A stretch of 64,000 bases of DNA from an uncultured Acidimicrobiales bacterium (GCA_958296055.1 CATQHS010000001.1:23570-87569); one strand, 5' to 3'; counted from the stretch's first letter, positions 2,224 through 57,051 are shown. The notes: a model not told the origin generated them from the letters alone. Made by a program: numbers and translations.

Positions 2224-3012
2224 TCAGAGGATCTGGGACAGGAACTGCTTGGTCCGGTCCTCGGCGGGGCTGGTGAAGAAGTGCTCGGGCGTGCCGGTCT
2301 CCACGATCTGGCCCTCCTCCATGAACACGACCCGGTCGGCCACCTCCCGGGCGAAGCCCATCTCGTGGGTGACCACCATCATGGTCATGCCCGAGCGGGC
2401 CAGCCCCTTCATGACGTCGAGCACTTCCTTGATCATCTCGGGGTCCAGGGCCGAGGTGGGCTCGTCGAAGAGCATGACCCGGGGGTCCATGGCCAGGGCC
2501 CGGGCGATGGCCACCCGCTGCTGCTGGCCGCCCGAGAGCTGGCCGGGGTACTTTTCGGCCTGCTCGGGGATCCCGACCCGCTCCAGCAGGGCCCGGGCCG
2601 CCGCCTCGGCCTCCCGGCGGGGCTTCTTGCGCACCCATATGGGGGCCAGGGTGATGTTGCCGAGCACGGTCAGGTGCGGAAACAGGTTGAACTGCTGGAA
2701 GACCATGCCCACCTCGGACCGGATCTGTTCGATGTTGCGCAGGTCGTTGGTGAGCTCCACCCCGTCCACGACGATGCGGCCCTCCTGGTGGTGCTCCAAG
2801 TGGTTGATGCAGCGGATCCAGGTGGACTTGCCCGAGCCGGACGGCCCCAGCACCACCACCACCTCCCGCTCGGCGATGGTGGCCGTGATCCCGTCGAGGG
2901 CCTGGAAGTCGCCGAACCACTTGCTCACGCCCTCGCAGACGATCATGTCGGCCCTGGCGTGGGCCCCGGTGTCGGCGCCGGCGGCGCCGCCGGCGGTGTC
3001 GGCGGCGGTCAT
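2224..3012 (-). CDS. aapP: Amino-acid ABC transporter ATP-binding protein (AapP/GlnQ family)
   Basis: GPSGSGKS Walker A, LSGGQQQR signature, [26 protein letters not shown]. Confidence 0.93.
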
Positions 3013-3028
3013 GGTTGCCCTCCCGCGG

Positions 3029-4960
3029 TCATCTCTCCCCCACCCCGAGCCGGCGCTCCAGGCGCTGGCTGTACTTCGACATGGAGAAGGCGAAGATCCA
3101 GTAGACGATGGACACGAACAGCAGGCCCTCCCGCTTCACCCCCAGGAACTCCGACTGGCTGGGGATGGCCCGGTTGGCCAGGAACAGGAAGTCGAAGATG
3201 CCGATGACGGCCAGCAGCGAGGTTTCCTTGAAGGTGGAGATGACCTGGCCCACCAGCGGCGGGATCGACACCCGCAGACCCTGGGGCAGCACGATGAACA
3301 TGGTCCGCTGGACGGTGGTCAGCCCCACCGCGTCGGAGGCCTCGTACTGGCTGCGGCCCACGGCCTGCAGGCCGCCCCGCACGTTCTCGGCCAGGTAGGC
3401 GGCGGCGAACAGCGAGAAGCCCACCGTCACCGCGGCCACCGAGCCCAGCTCCATGTTTTGGGGCAGGAACAGGTTCAACATGTTGGCGAAGAAGAAGAGC
3501 ACGGTGATGAGGGGGATGCCCCGCATCGCCTCTATGTAGGCGGTGGACAGCACCCTGAAGATGGGCAGCTTCGAGGTGCGGCCCAGCGCCAGCAGCACGC
3601 CCAAGGGGAACGAGAAGATCAGGGTGAAGACGGCCACGAACAAGGTGACGCTGAACCCGCCCAGAAACTCCGAGGTCGGGGTGTTGAGGGTGGACTCGGT
3701 GTTGGCCATCGTCACCAGGTACTGGACCACGGTCATGGCCCCGGCCCAGCCCCAGACCAGGCGGAGCCGCTGGGCCCGCTCGCCGGTGAAGTTGGGGGCC
3801 AGCAGGGCGGCCAGGGCCAGCAGCAGGAACCCGAAGCGGGCCTTCTGGAGCATCGGGTACCAGCCCGCGAAGGCGGCCACCCAGTTGAACCCGGCGAAGG
3901 CCAGCAACCCCACCGCGATGACCCGGCCGACCTCGCCTATCCCGGGCCGGGTCAGCCCGTAGAGCACGGCTCCGCCCCCGATCACGAAGCCGGCGGCCAT
4001 GGGCAGGTCGGTGGACCAGACGTGGGCCCAGTCGATGGCCGGGTCCCGCAGCACCACCCAGAACAGGATGAAGGGGCTGAGCAGCCAGGCCAGGTTGACC
4101 AGAACCTTGAGGCGGCCCTCCGCCGGGGTGCCCCGGCCCTGCCGCCCGGCCGCCCAGCTCGCCATCAGCAGCAGCCACATGACGGTCCAGGGCAGCTTGG
4201 TGGACAGGGCCGCGGTGCGGTCCGGCTCGTACACGAATTCGTTGCCGGTGAAGGCGTAGTGGCCCCACCGGTAGAGCCAGAGAGTGGCCACGACCACCCC
4301 CAGGGACCCGAAGACGAGCGGAATGGTCGGCACGTAGGTGTGGCGCCGGCGCTCGTCCTCGAACCCGCGCCACAGGCCGGCCCCGACGCCGAACAGGACG
4401 GCGGCGGCCAGCCACCACCAGATGCGGTCGCCCATGGCCGCGCCGAACGACTGGCGGATCACCTCCCCGGCGGCGTCGCGCATCGGGTCGCCGTCGGGAC
4501 CGGACACCGCCGACGGCTCGCGCAGCACGACGCCGAGGGCGATGAGGCCGCCCGCGGTCATCGACCACATGGCCACCCGGGCCACCGGCACGCCCGACAG
4601 CCGGGCCCACAGGCCCAGCGACAGCCCGGACAGGGCGACGACGATTCCCACCGACACCCAAACCCGGATGTACTGGTCCTCCGGGTAGGCCTGGGTGAAC
4701 AGCAGGCGCAGGTTGACCCGCACCGCGTCCCAGTTGCGCTCCTCGCTGAAGGCGAAGTTCAGCAGGCCCCGCAGCCCGGCCAGGGCCACGACCGTGAACA
4801 CCAGGGTCAGCACCGTGTTGAAGGGGCTCGAGAACAGGTTCTTGCGCAGCCACTCCCCTACCGGCAGGCTCGGCTCATCCGGCGGCGCCGAGTCGACCGC
4901 GGCGGTGAGGCTGAACCCCTCGGGGTCGTGGCGCTCGAGCCCGAAATGCGGATCAGCCAT
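3029..4960 (-). CDS. aapM: Amino-acid ABC transporter permease (AapM/BztC-like, elongated)
   Basis: [17 protein letters not shown]-terminus, [27 protein letters not shown] loop, FKETSL. Confidence 0.9.
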
Positions 4961-4969
4961 CTCAGCTCC

Positions 4970-5060
4970 CCGCCGTCGCCGCGCTGGGCTGGCTCTGTAG
5001 TTCGAGCCCCATCAACGCCGCCGCCGCGCTGGGCCGGCTCTGTGGTTCAAGCCCCATCAG
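4970..5060. repeat. 45-bp tandem direct repeat between the two permease genes
   Basis: cgccg(t/c)cgccgcgctgggc(t/c)ggctctgt(a/g)gttc(g/a)agccccatca occurs twice; encodes linker ORF 5057..4962. Confidence 0.85.
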
Positions 5061-9109: not shown

Positions 9110-9119
9110 GCCAATCGCC

Positions 9120-12226: not shown

Positions 12227-12244
12227 GCCCCTAGCCCTCGCTGT

Positions 12245-13069
12245 TCACGGCGCCAGCAGGCGGGCGTGGGTCAAAAAGCCGGTGTGAGCGACCATCCGGT
12301 GGGCGGGGCGGACGGCCGCGCCGTCGATGTGCCAGCTCCGGTGCAGGACCTCGACGGTCTCGCCCATCCCGAACCCGGCGCCGTCGAGAGCGTCGCGCAT
12401 CCGGGCGGCCTGAACGATGCTGGGCGTGTAGGCCAGCAGGATCCCGCCGGGGCGCAGGGCTCGGGCGGCGTGGCCCGCCACCTGCCAGGGCTCGGGCAGA
12501 TCCAGGACGGCCCGGTCCAGGGCGGTCTCGTCGATGCCGGCGTAGGCGTCTCGGATCTGAGTGCGGTACCGCCCCATGGCCTCCGGCCCCAGGAAGCGCT
12601 CCACGTTGGCCCGGGCCCGCTCGCAGAAGTCCTCGCGCAGCTCGTAGCCGACCACCTCGGCTCCGGCCCGCAGCAGGGCGGCCGACAGGGCCCCAGACCC
12701 GAGGCCCGACTCGAACACCCGGGCGCCGGGGAAGATGTCGGCCAGCATCAGGATGGGGCCGAGATCCTTCGGGTACACCACTTGGGCCCCTCTGGGCATC
12801 TTCAGCACGAAGTCGCTCAGGGTGGGCCGCACCGCGGTGAAATAGACCCCCCGGCTCGATCGCAGCCGTTCCCCCTCGCCGGTCCCGATGATGGCACCGT
12901 GGTCGATCACCCCCGAGTGGGAATGAAACGAGGCCCCCTCGGCCAAGTCGAACAGGTAGCGGCGGCCTTTGCGGTCCACCAACAAGACCGGGTCCCCGAC
13001 CGCGAAAGAACAGCCGGCTGGCGGCGGAGGAGGGTCGCTCACGGCCGCGGGTGGTGGCGGGTCGCTCAC
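12245..13069 (-). CDS. trmI: tRNA (adenine-58-N1)-methyltransferase
   Basis: VLKMPRGAQVVYPKD, FESGLGSGAL, LDLPEPW, RPAHRMVAHTGFL; GTG at 13069 overlaps the upstream stop. Confidence 0.95.
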   Translation of the reverse strand: MSDPPPPAAVSDPPPPPAGCSFAVGDPVLLVDRKGRRYLFDLAEGASFHSHSGVIDHGAIIGTGEGERLRSSRGVYFTAVRPTLSDFVLKMPRGAQVVYPKDLGPILMLADIFPGARVFESGLGSGALSAALLRAGAEVVGYELREDFCERARANVERFLGPEAMGRYRTQIRDAYAGIDETALDRAVLDLPEPWQVAGHAARALRPGGILLAYTPSIVQAARMRDALDGAGFGMGETVEVLHRSWHIDGAAVRPAHRMVAHTGFLTHARLLAP

Positions 13070-13287
13070 GGCGGCGGGTGGTGGCTGATCACCATCCCTT
13101 CGCCGGGGTGCAGCCGCTCGGAGAGCACCACCGGCATCTCGCTGGCGCTGAGGGACTTGAGCAGCCGCTTGCGGACGAAGCCGGCCACGAAGACCGCGAA
13201 CCACAGCCTCGACCCGCCCAGAAGGCCGCGCTGGACCGCCCGGGATCGGATTCGGCCGCCCAGTCCTCCCGGCAGCCTCCACCCCAA
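13066..13287 (-). CDS. Small hypothetical membrane protein
   Basis: 73 aa (RGLLGGSRLWFAV...ERLHPGEGMVI); tightly packed in the operon with GTGA overlap into trmI. Confidence 0.7.
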   Translation of the reverse strand: MGWRLPGGLGGRIRSRAVQRGLLGGSRLWFAVFVAGFVRKRLLKSLSASEMPVVLSERLHPGEGMVISHHPPP

Positions 13288-13822: not shown

Positions 13823-13884
13823 CCTAACCCTCGCTCATCCCCATTCGCGCCGTCTCCGCCGGACCGGGCTGGGGCGGCGGCCGG

Positions 13885-14511
13885 TCATCGGTCGCTCATC
13901 CCCATTCGCCCCCGCAGCAACTCGATCTGCTCGGACACCAGGCGGTTGACCAGTTCCGCTCTGGCCGCCGCGGTCGGGGCGCTGAGCACGGCGAAGCGAT
14001 CCAGCGGGCCGACGGGCGCCGCGGCCGCGGCCCCGTAGGCGGCCCGGCTCGGGTCGGCGCCCAGATTCACCGGGCCGGGCTCGGGCAGCCCGTGAACTCG
14101 GGCCATCAGGGTCCGGGCCTCGGCCACCAGTCCCGGTAGCTCGGCGGTCAGCCCCATGGTCTCGGGCGAGGGCTTGGCGTCGTCATCGTCGGGCCAGTCC
14201 TGCACCTCGGCCCGGGGGTAGGGGTCGTCGGCCAGCCACCGCCGCACCCGGATGCGGCTGATTCCCACGACCGTCACCCCCCATTGGCCTCCGCCGATGG
14301 GCATCGCCTCAAGCACCTGGGCCATGGTCCCGACATCGCAGCGAACGTCGCCGCCGCCGACCTCGCTGCCCCGCTCGATCAAGACCACCCCGAAGGTGCC
14401 GTCGCCGCCCAGCACCTCCTCGAGCATGGCCAGGTACCGGGGCTCGAACACCCGCAGCCCCAGCCGAGACTCCGGCAGCAACACCATGCCCAGCGGGAAC
14501 ATCGGGGTCAC
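13885..14511 (-). CDS. Stand-alone LON peptidase substrate-binding domain protein
   Basis: PMFPLGMVLLP, LRVFEPRY, FGVVLIERGSEVGGGD, WLADDPYPRA. Confidence 0.9.
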   Translation of the reverse strand: MTPMFPLGMVLLPESRLGLRVFEPRYLAMLEEVLGGDGTFGVVLIERGSEVGGGDVRCDVGTMAQVLEAMPIGGGQWGVTVVGISRIRVRRWLADDPYPRAEVQDWPDDDDAKPSPETMGLTAELPGLVAEARTLMARVHGLPEPGPVNLGADPSRAAYGAAAAAPVGPLDRFAVLSAPTAAARAELVNRLVSEQIELLRGRMGMSDR

Positions 14512-14574
14512 GGTTCGGTCACATCCAGCGGGAATGCCGTCGCCGGTCTTCTGCGTCGGGCCGGTCCGGGGCGG

Positions 14575-16200
14575 TCACCCGGCTGCGTCGGGTGCGGCTG
14601 CCTCCGGGGGGGCCGGCGCCCGAGCCGGCGCCGGGGTCACTTCGTCGGCGCTGGGTCCGTAGGGGTGGCCGGCGGTGGCGGTGATGATGGTTCGCTGAAG
14701 ATCGTTGCACAGTCCGAGGGCGCCGACGGCTTCGCCGTTGGCGATAACCGCGAAGGTGATCACGTCTCCGATAGCGGTCTCGGTGATCCCGGCCAGGGCG
14801 GTCACGTCGTTGAGGGTCCCGGTCTTGGCCCGGACCCTTCCGGTCACGGCCGGGTTGCGGCTGAGGCACTCGCTCAGGGTTCCGCTCTGGCCCACCTCGG
14901 CCAGGCCGTCCACCAGGGCCGAGTCCGGCCCGGCCCGGCGCAGCACTTCGGCGACCAGGGTGCAGGTGATCCGGTTGTAGGAGGACAGGCCCGAGCCGTC
15001 GCTGATGACGATTTCATCCAGCGACAGCCCGAACTCCTGCAGCACCCCGTAAATCCCGAACACCGCCGCCATCCGGGCCGATTCCAGTCCCGACCTGATC
15101 CCGATCTCCTTGAGCAGCATCTCGGCGATGGTGTTGTCGGAGTAAGAGAGCATGCGGGTGACGATCTCGTTCAAGGGGGGGGACTCCACCCGGCCCAGGG
15201 AGGTGCGCTCGTCGGGAATCCCAGGGGCGGTGCCTTTGCTGGTCCGGCTGCGGATGCGGAACTCGCGCGCTTCGAGGAGGTCGTCGAAGAGTTCGACGGC
15301 CTGGCGGGCCGGGTCCTCGGCCCTCACATTGGCCCGGCGGTTCGGCTCGTCCGGATAGGAGACGTAGCCGTCGTTCACCAGCAGGGCTGACAGGGGCCCG
15401 GCCTGGTTCTCAGTGAGGAAAGACGGCTTCCAGATCAGCGCGGCGGCGCCCTCGTCCTCGTTGTTCTCGTCCTCGTTGCCCCCGTCTTCTTCGTTGCCCT
15501 CGTTGTTCTCGTCTTCTTCGCCCGTAAAGACCGCGCCCGGCAGCTCTTGGGTGTAGTCGCGCTCCTCCTCGGGGTAGCGGGACTCGTCGGCCACCACCCC
15601 GCCGGTGATGGTGTCGACCCCGAGCCGGGTGAGCTCGGCCGCCACCTGCTCGGCCAGGTCGGTGATGTCGGTATAGACCCGAGGCTCGTCCCAGCGGTCG
15701 ACGTAGTCGGGCGTCGACAGCACCGGGTCGCCGTCGCCGACCAGGTACAGGTCGCCGTCCAAGACCCCGTCGGCTATCGAGTCCCGGGCTTCGGTGGTGA
15801 TGAACACCTCGGTGACGTAGGTGTCGTCGGGGCCGGCTAGTTCCAGGATGACCGCGGCGGTGAGGATCTTGTTGAGCGACGCCGGCACCAGCGGTTCGTC
15901 GCCCCGAACCTCGGTCACCAGTTCGTCGCCGCGGTAGGCCACCACGCAGGTGCGAGCCGGGGCCGAGGGCACCGACGCCACTCCTTCGACGGCCGAGGCC
16001 AGCCTCTGGTCGGTAATGTCGGAGACCAGCCACTCCGGCATCCGCCGGACGCTGAGCAGCGGCGTGGTCACGATCCGCTCGGGCGGCCCCGAGTAGGCGG
16101 CCCACTCGACCTCTGAGCCGGTGTCGGTGGATCGGGCCTGGTACAGGGCGACGGCGGCGAAGCCGAGCAGCAACACCGGGACCACCAGACGGCGAAACAC
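14575..16200 (-). CDS. dacB: D-Ala-D-Ala carboxypeptidase/endopeptidase (peptidase S13)
   Basis: N-terminal TM, PASLNK (SxxK), GDGDP, SDN, DGSGLS, KTGT. Confidence 0.92.
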   Translation of the reverse strand: MFRRLVVPVLLLGFAAVALYQARSTDTGSEVEWAAYSGPPERIVTTPLLSVRRMPEWLVSDITDQRLASAVEGVASVPSAPARTCVVAYRGDELVTEVRGDEPLVPASLNKILTAAVILELAGPDDTYVTEVFITTEARDSIADGVLDGDLYLVGDGDPVLSTPDYVDRWDEPRVYTDITDLAEQVAAELTRLGVDTITGGVVADESRYPEEERDYTQELPGAVFTGEEDENNEGNEEDGGNEDENNEDEGAAALIWKPSFLTENQAGPLSALLVNDGYVSYPDEPNRRANVRAEDPARQAVELFDDLLEAREFRIRSRTSKGTAPGIPDERTSLGRVESPPLNEIVTRMLSYSDNTIAEMLLKEIGIRSGLESARMAAVFGIYGVLQEFGLSLDEIVISDGSGLSSYNRITCTLVAEVLRRAGPDSALVDGLAEVGQSGTLSECLSRNPAVTGRVRAKTGTLNDVTALAGITETAIGDVITFAVIANGEAVGALGLCNDLQRTIITATAGHPYGPSADEVTPAPARAPAPPEAAAPDAAG

Positions 16201-27332: not shown

Positions 27333-28109
27333 ATGGCCGCTCACCCCTACCTGGAAGCGGACGGCCCCATCGCCTTCGCCCATCGGGGCGGCGCCGGCGT
27401 CTTCCCCGAGAGCACCATGCGGGCCTTCGCCCACGCCGCCTCGCTCGGCTTCACCCACATGGAGACCGACGTCCAGGCCACCGCCGACGGCGTGGCCGTC
27501 GTCTTCCACGACGCAGCCCTGGACCGGGCCACCGACGCCAAGGGCCGCATCGGCGCCATGAGCTGGCGGGAGGTGCGGCGGGCCCGGGTGGCCGGCGCCG
27601 ATCCCCTCCTGCGGCTAGACGAGCTGCTGGAAGAGCTGCCCGAGGCCCGGTTCAACCTCGACCCCAAGACCGGCCGGGCCGTCGAGCCGCTGGTCGAGGC
27701 CATCCAACGGACCGGGAGCCTGGAGCGGGTGTGCGTGTCGTCGTTCTCGGACCGGCGCACCCGGCGGGTGCGGGACCGGCTCGGGCCCGGGCTGTGCGTG
27801 GGGGCCGGGCCCCGGGCCGTGCTCCGGCTGATGGCGGCCCGGTGGCCGCTGCCCTGGCCGGCGCCGGTGGGGCCGCCCCGCTGCCATGCGGCCCAGGTCC
27901 CGGTTCGGATGAGGGGCGTGTCCGTCGTGACCCCCGGCTTCGTGGAGACGGCTCACCGCTATGGCGTCGTCGTGCATGTCTGGACCATCGACGATCCCGA
28001 CGAGATGCACCGCCTCCTGGACATGGGGGTGGACGGGATCATGACCGACCGCCCCGAGACGCTGCGCCGGGTGATGATGGCGCGAGGCGACTGGCCATCT
28101 GCCGGGTGA
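27333..28109 (+). CDS. Glycerophosphodiester phosphodiesterase family protein
   Basis: FAHRGG, PESTM, ETDVQATADG, VFHD, VHVWTIDD, GVDGIMTDRP. Confidence 0.92.
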   Translation: MAAHPYLEADGPIAFAHRGGAGVFPESTMRAFAHAASLGFTHMETDVQATADGVAVVFHDAALDRATDAKGRIGAMSWREVRRARVAGADPLLRLDELLEELPEARFNLDPKTGRAVEPLVEAIQRTGSLERVCVSSFSDRRTRRVRDRLGPGLCVGAGPRAVLRLMAARWPLPWPAPVGPPRCHAAQVPVRMRGVSVVTPGFVETAHRYGVVVHVWTIDDPDEMHRLLDMGVDGIMTDRPETLRRVMMARGDWPSAG

Positions 28110-31155: not shown

Positions 31156-31165
31156 GCATGGCTGA

Positions 31166-32323
31166 ATGAGACCCGAGGCGGCCCGGATCGCCGCCCTGGC
31201 CGCCGGGGCCGGGCTGGGCCGCATCCACATCCTGGCCTGGCGGGACTTGGACGACGCCGAGGCCGGAGGGTCGGAGATCCACGCCGACCGGGTGGCCCGC
31301 CGGTGGGCCGAGGCCGGCATCGAGGTCACCATGCGCACGTCAAGAGCGGCCGGCGCGCCCGAGGCAGCCGGCCGGGCCGGTTACCGGGTGGTGCGCCGGG
31401 CCGGGCGGTACGCGGTCTTCCCCCGGGCGGCCTTGGCCGAGATCGGCGGCCGCCACGGACCCCGCGACGGGCTGGTGGAGATATGGAACGGGGTGCCGTT
31501 TTTCGCGCCGGTGTGGGCCCGGGGGCCTCGGATCACCTGGCTTCATCACGCCCACACCGACATGTGGCCGATGGTCATGGGCCGCCAGCTGGCGGCCTTC
31601 GGCCAGATGCTCGAGCGCGACCTCGCGCCCCTGCTCTACCGGCGGACGGCGATCGTCACCCTGTCGCCGTCGTCACGCGATCATCTGATCGACAGCTTCG
31701 GGTTCCCGTCCAACCGGGTCCGAGTGGTGGCCCCCGGCATCGACGAGCGGCTCCAGCCCGGAGGGGCCCGGAGCGAGCGGCCGCTGCTGGTGGCCGTGGC
31801 CCGGCTCCTGCCCCACAAGGGCTTGGACCGGGTGATCCGGATCGCGGCTCAGCTCCGCCGACGCCACGACCTGAGGCTGGTCATCGCCGGCGAGGGCTAC
31901 CATCGGGATCGCTTGGAGAGGCTGGTGGACGACCTCGGCGCCGGTTCGTGGTGCGAGCTGGCCGGCCGGGTCGACGACGAGACCAAGATCGGCCTCTACC
32001 GGCGGGCCTGGGTGCTGGTGAGCGCTTCGGTCAGCGAGGGCTGGGGCATGACCGTCACCGAAGCGGCCGCCTGCGGCACCCCGGCCGTGGCCAGCCGTAT
32101 CCCGGGCCATCTCGACGCCGTCGCCGACGGGGTCACCGGCCATCTGGCCGGCGGCGACGAAGAGTTCGCGGCCGCGCTCGAACGGGTCATAGTTGACCCC
32201 GAGCACCGCCGGCGCCTGGGCGCGGCCGCTCTGAAGCGCTCGGCTGACTACACCTGGGAGCGCACCGCCCACGACACCCTGGCGGTGCTGGCCGAGGAGT
32301 CCCGGCGCCGCCGGCGGCGATGA
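31166..32323 (+). CDS. GT4 glycosyltransferase
   Basis: WRD...AGGSE, RLLPHKG, EGWGMTVTEAAACGTP. Confidence 0.92.
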   Translation: MRPEAARIAALAAGAGLGRIHILAWRDLDDAEAGGSEIHADRVARRWAEAGIEVTMRTSRAAGAPEAAGRAGYRVVRRAGRYAVFPRAALAEIGGRHGPRDGLVEIWNGVPFFAPVWARGPRITWLHHAHTDMWPMVMGRQLAAFGQMLERDLAPLLYRRTAIVTLSPSSRDHLIDSFGFPSNRVRVVAPGIDERLQPGGARSERPLLVAVARLLPHKGLDRVIRIAAQLRRRHDLRLVIAGEGYHRDRLERLVDDLGAGSWCELAGRVDDETKIGLYRRAWVLVSASVSEGWGMTVTEAAACGTPAVASRIPGHLDAVADGVTGHLAGGDEEFAAALERVIVDPEHRRRLGAAALKRSADYTWERTAHDTLAVLAEESRRRRRR

Positions 32324-32357
32324 TCCCGAACCGCGGCCGGTCCCCAGCCCGGCGGCG

Positions 32358-35300
32358 ATGACCCCCCGATCGCCGCGCCAGGCCGGGGGTTGGAGGCCGC
32401 GGTGGTGGCCGGACCGCTGGACGGTGCTGGTCGCCGTCGCCGCGGGCTACGGGCCGGTGATGGCTTCGAGCCCGGGCTGGGTCTCCGCCGACACCAAGAC
32501 CTACCTGTATCTGGACCCGGGCCGCCTGCTGGCCCGGGCCCCCACCCTGTGGGACGCGGACCGGGCCCTCGGCACCGTCACCCACCAGAACATCGGCTAC
32601 TTGTGGCCGATGGGGCCCTTCTACTGGCTCACCGACGCCCTGGGCTGTCCCGACTGGCTGGCCCAGCGGCTGTGGCTGGGCACGCTGCTGGCCGCGGCCG
32701 GGCTCGGGGTGCGGTACTTGCTGCGCACCATGGGCTGGGAGGGCCGGGGGCTGCTTATAGCCGTCTTGGCCTACGAGCTGAGCCCGTACCTGCTGCACTA
32801 CTCGGCCCGTATCTCCATAGTCCTGGCCCCCTGGGCCGGGTTGGGCTGGCTGATCGGGCTCACGGTCAAGTCGGCCCGAGTCGGCGGGTGGCGGTACCCG
32901 GCCTTGTTCGCCTTGGCCGCGGTCACAGTCGGAAGCGTCAACGCCACCAGCCTGGCGCTGGCCGGGCTGGCCCCGGCGCTGTGGCTGGCCCACGCGGTGT
33001 GGGTGGAGCGCAGCGTCGCCTTCCGGCGGGCCGGGGCCGCCGCCGGCCGCATCGGCCTGCTCACCGCGGGGGTGTCGCTGTGGTGGATGGCCGGGCTGGC
33101 CGTCCAGGGCGCGTTCAGCTTGCCGGTCACCCGCTACACCGAGAGCTACAAGGCGGTAGCCGACGCCAGCACCGCCCCCGAGATCCTGCGCGGGCTCGGC
33201 TACTGGTTCTTCTACGGCAACGACAAGCTCGGCCCCTGGATCGAGCCCAGCGTCGACTACACCCAGGGCCTCTGGCTGGTGTTCGTCAGCTTCGGGCTGG
33301 TGGTCGGGACCCTGGCGCTGGCCGCGGCCCTTCGCTGGCGGCACCGCGGCTACTTTCTGCTCCTGCTGGCCGTAGGGGCCTTGATCGGGGTGGGCGCCCA
33401 CCCCTGGGACGGCTCGTCGCCGGCCGGGGCCCTGTTCAAGGCCTTCACCCGCACCGATGCCGGCCTGGCCCTGCGGTCCACCCCCCGGGCCGTTCCGCTG
33501 GTGGCGCTGTCGGTGGCGGTGCTGGCCGCGGCCGGCGTCAACGCCCTGTGGCGGCGGATGCCCCGGCTCGGCTCGGCGGTCGGCGCCGGGGTGCTGCTGG
33601 CCGTGGTGCTCAACAACCCGGCCATGTGGAAGGTCCGCATGGTCGAGGAGCACCTGCGCCGCCCCGAGCACTTGCCCGAGTACTGGCTGGAGGCCGCCGC
33701 CGACTTGGACCGGGCCGGTCCGGGCCGGGTGTGGGAGGTGCCCGGCTCGGACTTCGCCTCCTACCGGTGGGGCAACACCGTGGACCCGATCACCCCCGGC
33801 CTGATCGACCGGGGCTACGCGGCCCGGGAGCTGGTCCCCTTCGGCTCGGCCCAATCGGCGGCCCTGCTCACGGCAGTGGACCGGAGGCTCCAAGAGGGGA
33901 CGCTGGCAGCCGAGAGCCTCACCCCGGTGGCCCGGCTCATGGGGGCGAGCGAGATCGCGCACCGGGCCGACCTGATCTTCGAGCGGTTCCGGACCCCGCG
34001 CCCACCGGAGACGGCGGCTCTGCTGAAGCTGGCCCCGGGCCTGAGGGAGGTGGCGGCCTACGGCGACCCGGTCCCCAACGAGGCCGGCCCCGAGCAGACC
34101 ATGATCGACGAGATCCACCTGGCCCGGCCCCCCGGCACCGTCCACCCCGCTCCGGTGACCAGATTCGGGGTGGCCGACCCCCGGCCCATGGTGGGGACCC
34201 GGTCCGCGGCCTCGGCTGTGGTGGTGATCGGAGACGCCGACGGCATCGTGGACGCGGCCGCGGCCGGCGTTGTGGACTTCACCGGCGCCAGCCCGCTCTT
34301 CTTCGCCGCCGACTTGGTGAGCGCCCCCGAGCTGGCCGAGAGGGTTCTGGGCGCCGACGGCCCGGGCGAGCCCGCCGACATCGTGGTGACCGACAGCAAC
34401 CGGCGCCGGGCCCAGCGCTGGGGAACGCTGCGCGAGAACCGGGGCTACACCGAGATGGCGGGCGAGACCCCCCTGGTTTATGACCCCACCGACAACCGCC
34501 TGGCCGGGTTCGGGGCCGATCCGACCGACGACACCCGGACGGTGAGCGAGCAGCGGGGCCCGGTCGCAGCCCGGGCCACCGCCTACGGCAACCCGGTCAC
34601 CTACACCGCCGACGACCGCCCCGCCTTGGCCGTCGACGGCTCGCCGGCCACGGCCTGGGTGGTCGGCGCTTTCAGCGACCCCCGGGGCGAGGTCCTGCGG
34701 CTGGAGTTGGCCGAGCCCGGCCCGGTGGCCGCCGTGAGGCTGCTCCAGCCCCCGGGCCCGGCCAACCGCCGCATCACCGAAGTCGAGATCCGGGCCGACG
34801 GCCGGGCCGCGGGCCCCTTCGCCTTAGATGAGCGCTCGCGGGCCGAGCCGGGCCAGAGCGTGGCTCTGGGGGTGGAGGCCTCGGTGATCGAGATCGAGAT
34901 CACCGCCACCGACCTGGACCGGCTGAGGACCTATCCCGGCATCGACCCGGTCGGCTTCGCCGAGGTCGACCTGGGTCTGGGGCCGACCGCCGAAGTGATC
35001 CGCACTCCTCGAGCCCTCATGGACCGGCTCGGCGAAGACCTCGATCACCACGACTTGGCCGTTGTGTTGACCCGGGAGCGCTCCGATCCCCGCGAGCCGG
35101 TGCGCGCCGACCCCGAGCCCGGCATGGTCCGGGCCGTACCACTGCCCGTCGGGCGGCAGGCGACCCTGCGGGGCACGGCCCGGCTGTCGGCCCTGGCCCC
35201 GTCGCCGGTCATCGACGGTCTGCTGGGGCTGGGGACGGCCCCGGTGACGGCCACATCGTCAGACAAGCTGGCCGGAGATTTGCCCAGCCGAGCCTCGGCG

Positions 35301-36803: not shown

Positions 36804-38267
36804 TCAAGCCAAAGGCATAGAAGTCGGGCTAACAGGCGCAGGCAGATCCCCCGCCCCGCCGAGCCCGGCATCCACCGCCGCCGCGCAAGCCCGCCCCTCG
36901 GCAATGGCCCACACGATCAGGCTCTGGCCCCGGCCCATGTCGCCGCACACGTACACCCCGGGCGCGCTCGTCTCCCAGCGCCGGTCCCGGGCCACGTTGC
37001 CCCGCTCGGTCATCTCCACTCCGAGCTGGTCCAGCAGCGGCCCCGGCTCGGGGCCGGTGAACCCCAGGGCCAGCAGCACCAACCGCGCGGGCCATTCCTG
37101 CTCGCTGCCCGGCACCGGCTCGAAGCCCATGCGCCCGTCGGCGAGGGTCTGCTCCACCCGCACCGTCTGCAACCCGGCCAGGTTCCCGGACCCGTCGCCG
37201 ATGAAGGCCACCGTGTTTATGGCGAACTCCCGCTCCCCGCCCTCCTCGTGGGCCGACGACACCCGGTAGACCACCGGCCAGGTCGGCCACGGGTTGGCGC
37301 CGGGCCTCGAGTCGGGGGGCCGGGGCATGATCTCGAACTGCACCACTCGGGCCGCCCCCTGGCGGTGGGCGGTGCCCAGGCAGTCGGCGCCGGTGTCGCC
37401 GCCGCCGATTATCACCACGTCCTTGCCCGCCGCGGTGATCGGCGGCTCGGCTAGGTCGCCCTGCTGGACCCGGTTGGCCCAGGGCAGGTACTCCATGGCC
37501 TGATGGACCCCGGCCAGGTCCCGGCCCGGTATGGGCAGGTCCCTCCAGGCCGCCGCGCCGCCGGCCAGGACCAACGCGTCGTGGCCCGACCGCAGCTCGG
37601 CCCCGGTCACGTCCACGCCCGCCTCCACCCCGGTGCGGAACCGGGTCCCCTCGGCCCTCATCTGGTCCAGGCGCCGGTCGAGGTGGCGCTTCTCCATCTT
37701 GAACTCCGGGATCCCGTACCGCAGCAGACCGCCGAGCCGGTCGGCCCGCTCGAAGACGGTGACGGCGTGGCCGGCCCGGGTGAGCTGCTGGGCCGCGGCC
37801 AACCCGGCCGGCCCCGACCCCACCACCGCCACCGAGGCCCCGGTGGCCGCGGCGGGCGGCTGGGGTGCCACCCAGCCCTCGGCCCAGGCCCGGTCGATGA
37901 TCTCCGCCTCCACCTGCTTGATGGTCACCGGGGGCTCGTTGATGCCGAGCACGCAGGCCTCCTCGCAGGGGGCCGGGCACAGCTTGCCGGTGAACTCCGG
38001 GAAGTTGTTGGTGGCGTGCAGTCGGTCGATGGCGTCGCGCCACGCTCCCCGGTGCACCAGGTCGTTCCAGTCGGGGATGAGGTTGCCCAAGGGGCAGCCG
38101 TTGTTGCAGAACGGGATGCCGCAGTCCATGCAGCGCGACGCCTGCTGGCGCAGCGCCTCGGCCGGGAAGTCCTCGTACACCTCCCGCCAGTCCCGGAGTC
38201 GCACCGGCACCGGGCGGCGCCCGGGCAGGACCCGGTCATGGGTCAGAAAGCCCCGGGGATCGCCCAT
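36804..38267 (-). CDS. gltD: Glutamate synthase small subunit
   Basis: RCMDCGIPFC, NNFPEFTG, GSGPAGL, GGGDTGADC, RGQSLIVWAIAEGR. Confidence 0.97.
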   Translation of the reverse strand: MGDPRGFLTHDRVLPGRRPVPVRLRDWREVYEDFPAEALRQQASRCMDCGIPFCNNGCPLGNLIPDWNDLVHRGAWRDAIDRLHATNNFPEFTGKLCPAPCEEACVLGINEPPVTIKQVEAEIIDRAWAEGWVAPQPPAAATGASVAVVGSGPAGLAAAQQLTRAGHAVTVFERADRLGGLLRYGIPEFKMEKRHLDRRLDQMRAEGTRFRTGVEAGVDVTGAELRSGHDALVLAGGAAAWRDLPIPGRDLAGVHQAMEYLPWANRVQQGDLAEPPITAAGKDVVIIGGGDTGADCLGTAHRQGAARVVQFEIMPRPPDSRPGANPWPTWPVVYRVSSAHEEGGEREFAINTVAFIGDGSGNLAGLQTVRVEQTLADGRMGFEPVPGSEQEWPARLVLLALGFTGPEPGPLLDQLGVEMTERGNVARDRRWETSAPGVYVCGDMGRGQSLIVWAIAEGRACAAAVDAGLGGAGDLPAPVSPTSMPLA

Positions 38268-38327
38268 CAGCCGCCCGCCAGTCCAGGCGGAGGGGTCAGC
38301 CGGTCGCCCATGGCCGCAGCGGCCGTC

Positions 38328-50031: not shown

Positions 50032-52666
<2,635 letters not shown>

Positions 52667-52670
<4 letters not shown>

Positions 52671-53731: not shown

Positions 53732-53739
53732 GTCCTAAC

Positions 53740-54902
53740 TTATGGTGCCTTGCCGATTTGGAAAATCGGCGTTTCCATCCCTTTGACCCGATATTCCTCG
53801 GCTGCTTCTAGGAAGAATTCGTGACGGATCGATTCGTAGTAGCCAGCCTCCGGATAGATGTTGTTTATGTTCTCCCGGTTCCATGCGTTCCAGAGTTCGA
53901 CCAGGCGGGTCGTCGCCTCGGTTTTGCTGTCGAACAGGTTGGTGGTTTCCCCGGGGACTTCTGCCAAATTGAAGAGCTGCATCTTCCCCTCAGGATCGTC
54001 CTTGACCAGCTTTGTCCGGTCGGCGCGGACCGCGAGCGTCGTCCTGTTCGGATCCCACGCCGACTGTCGCCAGAAGAGGGCCCAAAAGAGGGCCTTGCGC
54101 GGTGAGCCGGTCTCTGATCCTCGGACGAAGGGGTCTAGGTTCACGCCGTCCAACGGCCGATCAGGGTCGACCGCCGAGCCAGCCAGGGCCAAGGCGGTGG
54201 CGGCTATGTCTAGGCTGGAGACCATCGGCTCGAACGTCTCGCCCTCAGGCCATCGGGTGGGCCACGAGGCGACGAACGGCACGCGTATCCCGCCCTCGAG
54301 GAAACTCCCTTTGTCCTTGCTGAACGGGGCGTTATCCGCCCAAGTCAAATTCGGTGAGCGCGTCGGTCAGGTAGCCGTCGAACCCGACGGCCCCTCTATT
54401 CTCGTTGAGCGGCAGATACGCCATGTCGGCGCGAGTGAGATCAACGCTGAAGTAGTCATGCCCGCCGCCGAGAAAGCCTTAAAAGTAGTTGAACCCGCGG
54501 TTGAGAGGGTGGAAGGTCGGCGCGGCCCCCAGTTGCCACTTGCCGACGATCCCGGTCCGGTAGCCGGCCTCGTCGAGATAGGCGGCCATGGTCTTTTCCT
54601 CCGTTGGAAGAACCATGCCCTTCGTACCGGCGCGCGACGGGCCGCAGAAGGGATGCACGACGTAGCCGTTGGAGAAGACCACGCCTTCTTCGGCCAGTCG
54701 GTCGATGTTGGGGGTCTTGATCTCCGTGGCGCCGTTGTAGCTCACGTCGTTGTAACCGAGGTCGTCTACGAACACGACGACGATGTTCGGCCGGACATCC
54801 TCACCAGCAGACCCGGGGCTCTGCTGGTGGACTGCGAGCATCCCGAAGCGATCACCAGAACAGCCAGAAAGCCTAGGCTGACGATCGTTTTGAAAGGATC
54901 AT
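53740..54902 (-). pseudogene. Lipoprotein sulfatase, fragmented paralog of 61291..63300
   Basis: Lipobox IASGC and CGPSRAG present, but with frameshifts, an in-frame stop at 54479 and two internal deletions relative to the intact paralog. Confidence 0.88.
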
Positions 54903-54984
54903 TCTCTCCTGTTCCATGCTATCAGCGGAGCCGCTGAATCAAGGGTGAGACGTTCTTCATCACCAGAAACGGTTGGTTCAGCGG

Positions 54985-57051
54985 TCATCGGACTGTGGGG
55001 CTGAACCTTTCTTGCCAGAGGCGGCCTTCTTCGGGTATCCATTGGCCGGTTATGATCATGCGGTGTTCATAGTCGGGTAGGATGCGGGTGATGGCGCATC
55101 GTCCTCCGAATGTGAATCCGTACACTTCGTCCGTGAATGTGTCTGTATAGAAAGTGAAGTCGAGATTGTCGAAGTCAAAAGCTTTGCGATGGTCGGGAAG
55201 ATCGGAGCGATCGGTTGGGTAGATGTGCAGAAAAAACGGTGTTTCAGTGTCGACATCGCGGCATGAGTCCGCTATGTATACCAGCCTATCTCTGTCGAAG
55301 TATATGTTGAATTTGGAGCGTGTGACGAGTTGGGCGTCTCCTAGAATGGATTCAAGTATCAGGTCTTCGTTTAGACTTTGTCCAATATTATCGTGGCAGG
55401 CTTTCAGTATGACACCGTCTTCTAGCAATGCAGTTACTGTCAACTCTGGCAAGAGAGGAAATTCTATAAAATCATATCCAGTGAAATTTTCTCTGAAGTA
55501 TCCAGCGTCTAGTCGACTGTAGAACCAAACGACATGCATGTCAAGGTTTCCGGTGCGGGTACAGTCGGCAAATTGTAAATTGGGGCGATCAGGCCACAAT
55601 CTATGGTACTGAATTTCTACTTCGGCTGGGATATTCGCATTCATATTGGCGTAGATGGCTCTTATGGCGTTGCTCCAGATATGCCCATTGAGGGGATTGG
55701 ATTTGAGGTATTGGATGGTCTGGGATTCTGTCCAGGATTTGGATGTGTAACCGACTCCTGATGCTAAGTGTTTCTTTATTTGCTCATGGCTGGAGGATGC
55801 TGGCAGGGCAAGCCAGAGAAACAGGCCCACCATTGTGATGTGCTTGAGCCCTACTTTTGGTTGCCGTATTTTCGTAGAGACAACCCGGCATCCGCCTTTT
55901 TGAGTGCTGTAGGTTATGAGTCCATTCAGATAAATCGCGACTGCGGCTAGTGCGGGTACGTATATTGGTGCAATGTATCGGCTTGTAAGACTAAAGTCTA
56001 CCATGGGTAAGGTTATAGTTAAAACAATTGAGTAGATTGACACGAAAACGACAGGGACAGTCAACCCTTTTAATTCTTTGATTCTTCCTCTACGCCACAA
56101 GAATATGAGTCCGCATCCGAAAGCAGCCGTTACAGTGATCAGGAACGCGATTTGCACTGATAAATCGCTGATTCCGTTTCTCTCTGCCTGTCTGTTCAGA
56201 TAGTCAAAGCCGTAGTCCTCTAGAACCCACTTGGTGAACTCTGAGCTGGCAACATTAATAGAGATAAGCCAGTCGAAGCCATCCGGATGCAAACCTTGAG
56301 CCCATTTCCCCGACTTGAGGTAAGTTCGCAATGTCCACATACCTATGGGAGCAATTGATATGACAGAATAAATAGCGATATGTCTTACTTTTGATAGAAA
56401 CCCTGGACCCTTCTTTGTCAGGACAACAAGGATTGTGGTGGCGACTATTGCAATCCCCATATTACGCGTTAGCAACGCTAAACTGGTGAACACTGCAGCT
56501 AAGATCAGCGCAGATTGCTTGTCGCTGTCCAAGAACCTATCCAACTTATAAAGTGATAGAACAGTGAACAAGATAAACAGCGGTTCCTGTAAAGCGTAGC
56601 TAAATATATTGCCTAGAAATGGTGATAAGGCACAGGCACTACCTGCCCATAGAATAAGAAAACGGGATTCGATCCTACCGGATATCCACACAAGTAATAC
56701 TATGATTGTAAACCCAAAGGCGATCGTATTCACATATTGGGCTGCGACCAGCCCATTTTCAATACCCAAGGCTATGACGACTGCCATCATCAACGGGAAT
56801 AAAGGTGGATAATATGCTTCATTAAAACCTTTCCCTTCCGACAAACCTTCACTGATAATGATGTACAATATTGCATCTGGACTCGTTGATATACCGTAGT
56901 TTAATTGACGCAATACTACCAAGGTTACACCCACACAACCAAGCAGCAGAATGATTCCTTTCCATCCCCTCCCCCCCCGGGGGGGCTTCCCCCGATCAGA
57001 AGCTATAACCGTTCTCATGAACATTTTTATCCCGATTGGATCAGCGGTCAT
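54985..57051 (-). CDS. GT-C/ArnT-PMT-like membrane glycosyltransferase with extracytoplasmic C-terminal domain
   Basis: AT-richer gene; STSPDAILY, YPPLFP, EPLFILF, LALLTRNMG, SRYIAPIY; multi-TM. Confidence 0.8.
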   Translation of the reverse strand: MTADPIGIKMFMRTVIASDRGKPPRGGRGWKGIILLLGCVGVTLVVLRQLNYGISTSPDAILYIIISEGLSEGKGFNEAYYPPLFPLMMAVVIALGIENGLVAAQYVNTIAFGFTIIVLLVWISGRIESRFLILWAGSACALSPFLGNIFSYALQEPLFILFTVLSLYKLDRFLDSDKQSALILAAVFTSLALLTRNMGIAIVATTILVVLTKKGPGFLSKVRHIAIYSVISIAPIGMWTLRTYLKSGKWAQGLHPDGFDWLISINVASSEFTKWVLEDYGFDYLNRQAERNGISDLSVQIAFLITVTAAFGCGLIFLWRRGRIKELKGLTVPVVFVSIYSIVLTITLPMVDFSLTSRYIAPIYVPALAAVAIYLNGLITYSTQKGGCRVVSTKIRQPKVGLKHITMVGLFLWLALPASSSHEQIKKHLASGVGYTSKSWTESQTIQYLKSNPLNGHIWSNAIRAIYANMNANIPAEVEIQYHRLWPDRPNLQFADCTRTGNLDMHVVWFYSRLDAGYFRENFTGYDFIEFPLLPELTVTALLEDGVILKACHDNIGQSLNEDLILESILGDAQLVTRSKFNIYFDRDRLVYIADSCRDVDTETPFFLHIYPTDRSDLPDHRKAFDFDNLDFTFYTDTFTDEVYGFTFGGRCAITRILPDYEHRMIITGQWIPEEGRLWQERFSPTVR

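What the first reader, a model, noticed from the sequence alone, without database searches (positions are those of the whole stretch)
3009..54988. Operon junctions bridged by tiny start/stop-overlapping linker ORFs (possible translational-coupling relay)
Seen: gaps between co-oriented genes are repeatedly filled by a mini-ORF whose start overlaps the upstream stop and whose stop overlaps or abuts the next start. Cases: 3032..3009 MTAGGQP (aapM to aapP); 5057..4962, 31 aa (aapQ to aapM); 12248..12231 VNSEG (trmI to protease); chain 13888..13835 plus 13838..13824 (LON to holin-like); chain 14578..14519 plus 14522..14508 VTEP (dacB to LON); 28109..28165; 31152..31169 VSMAE (GT2 to GT4); 32320..32361 MIPNRGRSPARRR (GT4 to aftD); 38311..38267 (into gltD, only the stop is coupled); 54988..54899. 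Several begin with the same bases as the downstream gene (ATGACCGC, GTGACC, ATGGGCGA, CGGCGGCGATGA). Duplicated starts seen are either in frame (27, 36 bp) or offset by 2 mod 3 (11, 20, 38, 44, 56 bp), the spacing that preserves coupling. Several junctions lacking a linker (aapP/dop, dop/pup, SBP/SBP) have their own -10 or SD. Established: termination-reinitiation at ATGA/TGATG overlaps. Inference: junction duplications or gene-deletion scars are tolerated only when ribosomes can still be relayed, leaving a hidden layer of micropeptide ORFs.
Basis: partly seen in the sequence, partly recalled or inferred. Interest (0 to 1): 0.75.

Follow-up and report, generated by a model that had tools for sequence, protein, structure and literature searches.

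The report
Duplicated gene junctions leaving relay mini-ORFs
In this high-GC actinobacterium the short DNA stretch where one gene stops and the next starts has often been copied in tandem, and the surviving copies are almost all of a length that lets a throw-away mini reading frame pass ribosomes on to the next gene, much like the MIRU repeats of mycobacteria.

Summary
All 12 mini-ORFs exist as written. Of the 10 junction cases, 4 are complete stop/start-overlapping relays (3009-3032, 14508-14578, 31152-31169, 32320-32361) and 2 are partial (4962-5057, 38267-38311). Four rest on a wrong downstream start or gene (12231-12248, 13824-13888, 28109-28165, 54899-54988).

The pattern is far above chance genome-wide. 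With my own gene calls, 133 of 209 junctions with NTGA at both ends are in phase, against 1/3 expected (p=5e-19). There are 169 complete relay chains, against 36-48 after a 1-2 nt phase shift.

The linkers are decayed tandem duplications of ancestral 4-nt-overlap junctions:
- they are not coding-like;
- they are not a dispersed repeat family;
- they are lineage-specific: present in the close relative G002, absent in G001, where many of the same junctions still overlap.

Among young duplications that truly span a start, units of 2 mod 3 outnumber 1 mod 3 by 22 to 1. In stop-only controls the ratio is 19 to 13. A neutral codon-register microhomology bias explains only a 1.5-2.9-fold preference. 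A translational phase filter therefore probably acts as well.

The principle is known from MIRUs, and this scan reported it before for this genome (e1-5018519) and for others. Translation of the linkers is untested.

The parts
3009..3032 (-). 7-codon relay mini-ORF between the permease gene 3029-4960 and the ABC ATPase gene 2224-3012. It has ATGA at both ends and a unit of 20 nt.
   Evidence: relay = 1. A GGGAGGG Shine-Dalgarno match lies in the 16-nt gap. G002 carries a two-link chain here (gap 63).
4962..5057 (-). 31-codon mini-ORF made of a 45-nt tandem repeat (2.1 copies) between the permease genes 5057-6592 and 3029-4960. The start overlaps the stop by 1 nt (TGATG) and the stop lies 1 nt before the ATG.
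   Evidence: (4971-5063, period 45, 89% matches). Contigs of runs X5 and X10 skip 4959-5053. G002 has a different duplication at this junction.
12231..12248 (-). Remnant start (VNSEG*) of the trypsin-like lipoprotein gene, which is out of frame with its signal peptide in this genome. It is not a linker.
   Evidence: in G002 and G001 the GTG that overlaps the trmI stop opens into the protease. In this genome it stops after 5 codons and the lipobox lies in the +1 frame.
13824..13888 (-). Duplicated 3' end of the LON-domain gene: an 18-nt repeat 62 nt apart, giving two mini-ORFs. The chain ends 26 nt before the likely real start, GTG 13798.
14508..14578 (-). Two-link GTGA-coupled chain (19 + 4 codons) from the S13 peptidase gene to the LON-domain gene, which starts at GTG 14511.
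   Evidence: One search shows the ...TPMFPLG N-terminus shared with G001 and G002.
28109..28165 (+). Mini-ORF after the GDPD gene stop, inside a non-coding stretch of about 830 nt with repeated copies of the stop context. No downstream gene begins at its end.
   Evidence: no family; GC by codon position 0.758/0.641/0.695; this gap is 52 nt in G001 and 852 nt in G002.
31152..31169 (+). 5-codon relay mini-ORF (GTGA...ATGA, unit 14) between the GT2 and GT4 genes.
   Evidence: G002 has a relay with gap 7 and G001 has a 4-nt overlap.
32320..32361 (+). 13-codon relay mini-ORF (ATGA...ATGA, unit 38, with CGGCGGCGATGA repeated) between the GT4 gene and aftD, which starts at 32358.
   Evidence: One search shows WRPRWWPDRW conserved upstream of GTG 32424. 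By my reading of the frames, G002 has a 20-nt unit here.
38267..38311 (-). Duplicated gltD start (ATGGGCGA, 44 nt apart). The decoy ORF ends on a TGA that overlaps the real ATG. It is not coupled to the gltB stop.
   Evidence: gap 60 here, 19 in G002, 11 in G001.
54899..54988 (-). 29-codon ORF from the stop of gene 54985-57051 to the ATG of a frameshifted sulfatase pseudogene.
   Evidence: No orthologous pair was available.
30379..30451 (+). In-frame 36-nt x2.1 duplication spanning the TGATG junction of the amine-oxidase and GT2 genes.
   Evidence: 94% matches.
13032..13085 (-). In-frame 27-nt x2.0 duplication spanning a GTGA stop context.
   Evidence: stop at 13066.

Best explanation
The linkers are by-products of short tandem duplications of gene junctions at which the upstream stop and the downstream start originally overlapped (NTGA, more rarely TGATG).

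After such a duplication the upstream gene still ends at the first copy and the downstream gene still starts at the last copy. In between lies a copy of the downstream 5' end joined to a copy of the upstream 3' end.

The outcome depends on the unit length:
- 2 mod 3: the first copy's start codon opens a mini-ORF that ends exactly on the TGA overlapping the next copy's start. A ribosome can then terminate and reinitiate link by link. Several units give chains.
- 0 mod 3: the result is an in-frame N-terminal repeat.
- 1 mod 3: the decoy start reads across the true start in the stop-poor frame of the downstream gene.

Two forces give the 2-mod-3 excess:
(a) A neutral one. Slippage between microhomologies is favoured when both arms are in the same codon register, and across a 4-nt overlap that means distances of 2 mod 3.
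(b) Probably a filter. Duplications of 1 mod 3 that include a start codon, and usually its Shine-Dalgarno copy, are quickly lost.

The peptides themselves are meaningless.

Shown: duplication origin, phase distribution, lineage specificity and lack of coding signal. Inferred: slippage as the mechanism, actual termination-reinitiation, and the fitness cost of 1-mod-3 units.
For: Origin:
- In-phase linkers with a unit length (L) of 31-60 nt have mean tandem identity 0.525 against a null of 0.376. 31 of 132 exceed the null's 99% quantile.
- Outgroup state: 13 of 32 single linkers are -4 overlaps in G001. Of 88 G000 -4 overlaps, 10 are single linkers in G002, and many others there are multi-copy arrays.
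- A start codon is required. Gap mod 3 is ATGA [11,44,5], GTGA [24,73,24], TTGA [7,16,5], against CTGA [37,53,35] and flat counts for TAA/TAG.
- Replication: G002 [15,51,11]; G001 [11,14,17].
- The linkers are not a dispersed family: 56 short inter-locus hits against 36 in control gaps.

Phase filter:
- 55 relays, 2 broken chains and 4 in-frame among 61 clear junction duplicates.
- 22/4/1 (2/0/1 mod 3) among 27 young duplications whose last copy opens into the downstream gene. The other 37 + 6 events give 19 (2 mod 3) against 13 (1 mod 3). Fisher one-sided p is about 0.002 by my arithmetic.
- With the downstream start located by homology to the overlap genome: 28 relays against 4 broken chains (p=0.012 against a 2.16:1 expectation).
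- TRF arrays spanning only a start: [28,2,21], [19,5,24], [5,2,4]. Arrays spanning only a stop: [51,36,51], [24,20,30], [11,9,5].
- All 21 arrays whose gap+4 is an exact multiple of the period have a period of 2 mod 3.

Neutral part:
- Microhomology distances across the 286 overlaps are [2575,2522,3875] at k>=4 and [30,17,49] at k>=8.
- 17 of 38 two-copy arrays extend 4 nt or more beyond one unit.

Literature:
- Gaps of about 20 nt abolish termination-reinitiation in E. coli and Haloferax (PMC10666635, abstract read).
- MIRU ORFs are coupled at -4 (PMC12548453, passage read).
Against: - No expression or ribosome data exist for this organism, so the relay is inferred from sequence alone.
- Downstream genes behind relays have Shine-Dalgarno matches as often as other genes: 46% with 4 nt or more, against 45-47% in the other gap classes and 54% at -4 overlaps. 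They may not need a relay.
- In G001 the 42 NTGA/NTGA junctions show no phase bias, so there is no general selection on chance configurations.
- With my caller's starts taken at face value, polarised events give only 45 relays against 25 broken chains, which fits the neutral bias alone. The stronger ratios depend on re-locating starts or on requiring copied flanks.
- By my reading of the inserted letters, metagenome relatives carry an out-of-phase 49-nt unit at the 3009-3032 junction.
- Events in G000 and G002 may be shared by descent, so the counts are not independent.
- All counts rest on a home-made gene caller.
Confidence: 0.6

Rival explanations
1. Purely neutral. Junction duplications are harmless whatever their phase, and the 2-mod-3 excess comes only from codon-register microhomology during slippage.
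For: - Predicted ratio 1.5-2.9.
- Caller-based polarised events give 45:25.
- The start-independent scan of NTGA stops gives [14,14,38] and [7,7,16].
- There is no bias in G001.
- Relays show no Shine-Dalgarno deficit.
Against: - 22:1 among start-containing young duplications against 19:13 in controls.
- 55:2 among clear duplicates.
- 28:4 with homology-located starts.
- Arrays spanning only a start give 49:9 summed over the three genomes.
- Only 17 of 38 arrays show a flanking microhomology of 4 nt or more, which would weaken the predicted bias further.
Confidence: 0.2
2. Adaptive relay. The mini-ORFs are kept because they tune or insulate the expression of the downstream gene, for example its stoichiometry or copy-number phase variation, rather than being merely tolerated.
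For: - Relay status is retained in 31 of 42 orthologous junctions between G000 and G002, although 38 of the 42 differ in length. The length differences are 22/9/7 for 0/1/2 mod 3, against 75/58/74 in control gaps.
- Copy number differs among close relatives.
Against: - Linker peptides and lengths are not conserved.
- There is no coding signal.
- G001 manages the same operons with plain overlaps.
- Independent duplications under the same bias could give the same retention.
Confidence: 0.1
3. Insertion of a MIRU-like mobile element that duplicates the tetranucleotide NTGA as its target site.
For: MIRUs are described as inserting at start codons, with tetranucleotide direct repeats and a -4-coupled ORF (PMC12548453 and PMC3184786, passages read). 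Many older linkers show no similarity to their flanks.
Against: - Linkers share no consensus: only 13-17-nt GC-rich hits, about as many as in control gaps.
- Unit lengths are spread from 11 to 218 nt.
- Young units are plainly copies of the local flanks.
Confidence: 0.04
4. Chance or artefact: rare stop codons in GC-rich DNA, wrong start calls, or frameshift errors that cut gene ends.
For: - Stops are rare, and shuffled gaps still give 119 chains.
- Several window starts were miscalled.
- One case (12231-12248) is indeed a frameshift.
Against: - The phase bias has p=5e-19.
- The table rotates when nucleotides are inserted.
- The CTGA control is weak.
- There is no codon periodicity in the linkers.
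- The bias replicates in G002 but not in G001.
Confidence: 0.03
5. The linkers encode functional micropeptides.
For: They are open frames with start codons, and often a copied Shine-Dalgarno site.
Against: - GC by codon position is 0.73/0.78/0.80 against 0.72/0.51/0.93 in genes.
- Sequences and lengths are not conserved between G000 and G002.
- They are absent in G001.
Confidence: 0.03

Closest known systems
MIRUs (mycobacterial interspersed repetitive units; Supply et al. 1997, known to me only through the review PMC12548453 section 11 and PMC3184786, passages read)
   Same: - Units of 40-100 bp sit between co-oriented genes.
- The ORF inside a unit is coupled to the neighbouring gene at -4.
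- Tetranucleotide direct repeats flank the unit.
- Tandem copy number varies.
- Nine of the 12 classic typing loci have units of 53 or 77 bp, both 2 mod 3 (table in PMC3558156, passage read).
   Different: MIRUs are a dispersed family with a shared consensus and are thought to be mobile. Here every unit is a copy of its own junction and no consensus is shared. The scale is also larger: 169 junctions in 3.3 Mb.
Translational coupling by termination-reinitiation at ATGA/TGATG overlaps (Huber et al. 2019, PMC6728339, search listing only; Huber et al. 2023, PMC10666635, abstract read)
   Same: The same overlap motifs are used at each link. The reported loss of coupling at about 20 nt explains why a bare gap would uncouple the genes.
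   Different: The known cases are direct gene-to-gene overlaps. Here one to five non-coding mini-ORFs stand between the genes, and nothing has been measured.
Short upstream ORFs that deliver ribosomes, and synthetic bicistronic designs (as summarised in PMC12548453 section 11, passage read)
   Same: A throw-away short ORF ends on the start of the gene of interest.
   Different: Those are leader ORFs with their own initiation. Here the ORF is fed by the upstream gene's termination and arose by duplication.
Earlier notes of this scan (e1-5018519 on this genome; e1-5623673, e1-2141294, e1-2817779, e1-4189913 and others on other genomes)
   Same: They describe the same reading: duplicated stop/start junctions forming relay mini-ORFs, compared with MIRUs.
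   Different: This report adds:
- genome-wide counts with controls;
- the lineage contrast between G002 and G001;
- the neutral codon-register alternative;
- the start-containing versus stop-only comparison.

Membership tests
MIRU-type junction minisatellite | Sits between co-oriented genes, with an internal ORF whose ends overlap the flanking stop and start | tested here: met
   169 complete chains in G000. Window cases at 3009-3032, 14508-14578, 31152-31169 and 32320-32361.
MIRU-type junction minisatellite | Dispersed family: units at different loci share a consensus sequence | tested here: not met
   All-against-all blastn of 169 linkers gives 56 pairs with only 13-17-nt hits, against 36 pairs among 169 control gaps.
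MIRU-type junction minisatellite | Tandem copy number varies among close relatives | tested here: met
   Multi-copy arrays in G002 where G000 has a plain overlap. Contigs of X5 and X10 lack the 95 nt at 4959-5053, and X7 has 73 letters there.
MIRU-type junction minisatellite | Unit length of 2 mod 3 (53 or 77 bp in MIRUs) | tested here: met
   22 of 27 young true-junction units. All 21 exact arrays.
Termination-reinitiation coupling | Stop and start overlap by 4 nt or 1 nt | tested here: met
   Holds by construction of the chain test and is visible in the sequences.
Termination-reinitiation coupling | Downstream translation depends on upstream termination | not testable with these tools
   Needs reporter assays or Ribo-seq.
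Small-protein genes | Codon-position composition like that of genes, and a peptide conserved in relatives | tested here: not met
   GC by codon position is 0.728/0.776/0.800 in 106 linkers against 0.724/0.508/0.925 in genes. Orthologous linkers differ in length and sequence.

The most novel reading that the evidence does not exclude
Local tandem duplication of overlapped stop/start junctions may be the general birth process of MIRU-type minisatellites. It would be pre-biased to 2 mod 3 by the one-base register shift between the two genes and then filtered by translation. In lineages with high slippage, such as this one, more than a tenth of short operon gaps would be crossed by ribosomes through chains of meaningless mini-ORFs. 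Copy-number changes could then retune downstream expression without breaking coupling.
Probability: 0.35. Interest if true: 0.65.

Novelty: new variant of a known kind. Interest (0 to 1): 0.5.

Why it matters
The finding gives a simple account of how tightly coupled operons tolerate junction mutations. It may also explain why mycobacterial MIRU units are 53 and 77 bp long. It offers a natural experiment on how far termination-reinitiation constrains genome evolution.

For annotation it has three practical consequences:
- short gaps in high-GC operons can hide decoy starts;
- N-terminal in-frame repeats at overlaps are the 0-mod-3 class of the same event;
- start callers are misled there, as happened at three window genes.

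It is not a new principle, and this scan has met it repeatedly.

Tried and rejected
- **C-terminal frameshift remnants or assembly indels as the source.** Rejected for the bulk. The linkers lack codon periodicity. The CTGA class, which that model predicts to be as strong as GTGA, is weak. This explanation does apply to 12231-12248.
- **Dispersed mobile family.** Rejected.
- **Gene-caller artefact.** Rejected by the insertion test and by the start-independent scans.
- **Shine-Dalgarno loss behind relays.** Not seen.
- **Read-through test** (does the ORF from a coupled start stop inside the gap more often than in CTGA controls). It was positive (76 of 103 against 81 of 142), but it is confounded by two-link chains and was not used.
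- **Caller-based polarised events** (25). Inspection showed that many 'broken' chains were start miscalls. The analysis was redone with homology-located starts, where 62 of 114 events could not be located.
- **Register-versus-selection test on duplicated non-overlapping junctions.** The first version was flawed. The redone version has too few events ([1,1,1], [5,6,6], [2,0,5]), so it is inconclusive.
- **Start arrays with a divergent upstream gene.** Only [14,3,7], too few.
- **A third genome from another genus (G005).** It could not be fetched, so generality beyond this genus is untested here.
- **RNA evidence.** No RNA holder was listed for the stretch.
- **Family-level relatives of the 3009-3032 junction.** They have gaps with their own Shine-Dalgarno sites, not overlaps, so its ancestral state is unclear.
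- **Literature.** Searches found no paper describing genome-wide junction duplication with a 2-mod-3 rule outside MIRUs. Supply et al. 1997 itself is not in the library, and PMC12817950 (find only) held nothing relevant.

Full report
**What the window is.** The window is G000:C1:23570-87569 of a 3.3-Mb, 69% GC actinobacterial genome. It carries pup, dop, the proteasome ATPase, an amino-acid ABC transporter, trmI, a glycosyltransferase/aftD cluster, gltBD and trk genes. The last 12 kb have lower GC.

**The claimed mini-ORFs.** All 12 mini-ORFs of the finding are present exactly as written. The junction sequences show the stated overlaps and repeated start motifs.

**Gene calls.** No annotation was available, so I wrote a gene caller (dicodon log-odds, a second model for atypical genes, iterated start-codon and Shine-Dalgarno weights). 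It gives 3075 genes and 2166 co-directional junctions. Of these junctions, 286 overlap by 4 nt and 58 by 1 nt. Its starts are imperfect: in the window at least three had to be corrected from relatives (14511, 32358, 13798).

**Is the pattern more than chance?**
- There are 1095 junctions with gaps of 5-100 nt.
- The 209 that have a start codon overlapping the upstream TGA (NTGA) and a TGA overlapping the downstream start (NTGA) have gap mod 3 = [42,133,34].
- Junctions with neither feature are flat at [147,140,144]. The binomial test of 133 of 209 against 1/3 gives p = 5e-19.
- The effect needs a start codon. Upstream ATGA gives [11,44,5], GTGA [24,73,24] and TTGA [7,16,5]. CTGA gives [37,53,35], and TAA and TAG are flat.
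- Following chains of NTGA-coupled mini-ORFs from the upstream stop to the downstream start gives 169 complete chains among 1438 junctions with gaps of 5-250 nt. These comprise 123 single links, 33 double, 9 triple and 4 longer.
- Inserting one or two random bases into each gap leaves 36.1 +/- 2.7 or 47.7 +/- 4.0 chains. Shuffling the gap at constant length leaves 119 +/- 4.7.
- Re-running my start caller after such insertions simply rotates the table ([34,40,106] after +1, [128,36,38] after +2). The caller therefore does not produce the bias.

**What the linkers are.**
- They are not coding-like. GC by codon position is 0.728/0.776/0.800 in 106 linkers, against 0.724/0.508/0.925 in genes.
- A listing shows that many are flanked by direct repeats. 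The context of the upstream stop reappears at the downstream start.
- Tandem identity at the period set by the two NTGA sites is raised. The mean is 0.525 against a null of 0.376 for periods of 31-60 nt. 31 of 132 in-phase linkers lie above the null's 99% quantile and 54 above its 95% quantile.
- They do not form a dispersed family.
- Unit lengths spread from 11 to 218 nt, with most between 35 and 71.

**Relatives.**
- A 20-kb query found a same-genus genome G002 (median 88% amino-acid identity), a more distant same-genus genome G001 (76%), and family-level relatives.
- I fetched 1.6 Mb of G002 and 1.2 Mb of G001.
- G002 repeats the bias ([15,51,11], p = 6e-9). G001 does not ([11,14,17]).
- Chains: 91 of 627 junctions in G002 and 20 of 395 in G001.
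- Tandem arrays of period 9 or more number 592, 708 and 357 per Mb in G000, G002 and G001.
- Of 32 G000 single linkers with an orthologous junction in G001, 13 are plain 4-nt overlaps there.
- Of 88 G000 overlaps with an ortholog in G002, 45 are overlaps and 10 are single linkers. Many of the rest are multi-copy arrays of the junction, with units of 32, 38 or 71 nt.
- Contigs of close relatives in public runs differ at the same places. Those of X5 and X10 skip window 4959-5053, which by my reading leaves a TGATG overlap. X7 has 73 letters there.

The state is therefore derived, recent, recurrent and variable in copy number.

I first looked for a neutral cause. Across a 4-nt overlap the downstream frame is the upstream frame minus one. 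Positions in the same codon register in the two genes therefore lie at distances of 2 mod 3, and with strong codon-position composition chance microhomologies peak there. Across the 286 overlaps, exact repeats with one arm upstream and the other downstream occur at distances mod 3 as follows:
- k>=4: [2575,2522,3875];
- k>=6: [237,210,454];
- k>=8: [30,17,49].

This is a 1.5-2.9-fold preference. About half of the young two-copy arrays (17 of 38) extend 4 nt or more beyond one unit, as slippage between microhomologies predicts.

**Tests that fit the neutral bias alone.**
- A scan of all NTGA stops for recognisable duplications, whatever follows, gives [14,14,38] in G000 and [7,7,16] in G002.
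- Polarised events, taken with my caller's starts, give 45 relays against 25 broken chains.

**Tests that do not fit the neutral bias alone.**
- Inspection showed that many 'broken' chains were start miscalls.
- I then located the downstream start by similarity to the genome that still has the overlap. Of 114 events, 62 could not be located and 13 were still overlaps. The rest gave 28 relays, 4 broken chains, 6 without a coupled start and 1 in-frame repeat. This gives p = 0.012 against a 2.16:1 expectation and p = 0.058 against 2.88:1.
- Among junctions whose two NTGA contexts are clear copies (at least 16 of 24 flanking positions; null frequency 0.13%), G000 and G002 together have 55 relays, 2 broken chains and 4 in-frame repeats. 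G001 has none in 53.
- A caller-independent scan of 71 young duplications splits into three groups:
  - 27 whose last copy opens into the downstream gene: units 2/0/1 mod 3 = 22/4/1;
  - 37 in which neither copy is in frame with the downstream gene: 18/9/10;
  - 6 with no co-directional neighbour: 1/2/3.

  The remaining event is one whose first copy opens into the downstream gene (an in-frame repeat).
- By my arithmetic, 22:1 against 19:13 has a one-sided Fisher p of about 0.002.
- TRF arrays agree. Those spanning only a start are [28,2,21], [19,5,24] and [5,2,4]. Those spanning only a stop are [51,36,51], [24,20,30] and [11,9,5].

I conclude that a neutral register bias exists, and that duplications carrying a start codon are additionally filtered by phase. 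A copied start usually brings its Shine-Dalgarno copy with it. That may explain why chance NTGA pairs in G001 show no filter.

**Points against a functional relay.**
- Genes behind relays have Shine-Dalgarno matches as often as others.
- Linker sequence and length are not conserved.
- By my reading, an out-of-phase 49-nt unit exists in metagenome relatives at the 3009-3032 junction.
- Nothing is known about translation here.
- Relay status is kept in 31 of 42 orthologous junctions of G000 and G002, although 38 differ in length. The differences are 22/9/7 for 0/1/2 mod 3, against 75/58/74 in controls. Independent duplications under the same bias could give this result.

**The ten cases.**
- Complete relays:
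  - 3009-3032;
  - 14508-14578, with the start at GTG 14511;
  - 31152-31169, which is an overlap in G001 and a relay in G002;
  - 32320-32361, with aftD starting at 32358. G002 has a 20-nt unit at this junction.
- Partial:
  - 4962-5057, a 45-nt x2.1 repeat absent from close relatives;
  - 38267-38311, a start duplication in which only the stop is coupled.
- Not bridges:
  - 12231-12248, the frameshifted protease 5' end;
  - 13824-13888, a 3'-end duplication in which the real start lies 26 nt further on;
  - 28109-28165, which has no downstream gene;
  - 54899-54988, which ends on a pseudogene start.

**Comparison with what is known.**
- The closest thing is the MIRU. A 2025 review says MIRUs insert at start codons so that an internal ORF becomes coupled at -4 (PMC12548453, passage read). 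An earlier review notes tetranucleotide direct repeats and ORFs overlapping the neighbours (PMC3184786, passage read).
- Nine of the 12 classic MIRU loci have 53- or 77-bp units, both 2 mod 3 (PMC3558156, table read).
- The difference here is local origin without a shared consensus, and the scale.
- Termination-reinitiation at overlaps, and its loss at about 20 nt, are established in E. coli and Haloferax (PMC10666635, abstract read).
- This scan has already reported the same reading for another window of this genome and for at least seven other genomes.
- My searches found no paper on a genome-wide 2-mod-3 rule or on the register argument. Supply et al. 1997 was not readable here.

**Verdict.** The kind is known. 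The value lies in the quantitative picture and in separating the mutational part from the selective part.

Noticed in passing
window 12088-12248 (-): The trypsin-like lipoprotein gene has lost its reading frame near the 5' end. The GTG that overlaps the trmI stop is followed by a TAG after 5 codons. The signal peptide with its lipobox lies in the +1 frame, with no ATG, GTG or TTG upstream. In G002 and G001 the same GTG opens straight into the protein. This could be a pseudogene, an assembly indel or a non-canonical start.
   Followed up: partly
window 53740-54902 (-), within the 58-62% GC stretch from about 52000 to 64000: A sulfatase gene is broken into pieces. The Sulfatase N-terminal part is at 54479-54841 and the SGSH_C part at 53740-54348. 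Its start and lipoprotein signal lie in different frames.
   Followed up: partly
window 28110-28942: A stretch of about 830 nt without coding periodicity or Pfam hit lies between the GDPD gene and the amine oxidase gene. It is present in G002 (852 nt) but is only 52 nt in G001. Its 5' end holds repeated copies of the GDPD stop context.
   Followed up: partly
window 3029-4960 and 5057-6592 (-): The two ABC permease genes are unusually long (643 and 511 aa). The BPD_transp_1 domain occupies only the last 135-190 residues. Family-level relatives align only to the C-terminal parts.
   Followed up: no
G002 loci (for example the gap after the ortholog of window gene 2224-3012, and two other junctions listed): G002 carries a dispersed GC-rich repeat of about 22 nt or more, seen in both orientations in several intergenic gaps. 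It looks like a REP- or MITE-like family separate from the junction duplications.
   Followed up: no
whole genomes G000, G002, G001: Tandem-repeat density (period 9 or more) is 592 and 708 per Mb in G000 and G002, but 357 per Mb in G001. The burst of junction duplications therefore goes with a general rise in slippage products.
   Followed up: partly
window 15454-15527 (-), inside the S13 peptidase gene: Contigs of close relatives replace 72 nt by 39 other letters here, an in-frame length variant at a 15-18-nt tandem repeat.
   Followed up: no
G001 ortholog of the junction at window 32323: G001 has its own mini-ORF between GT4 and aftD. Its start overlaps the stop by 1 nt, and its stop is directly followed by the aftD ATG. 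Its first residues (MTPR) match the aftD N-terminus of G000.
   Followed up: no
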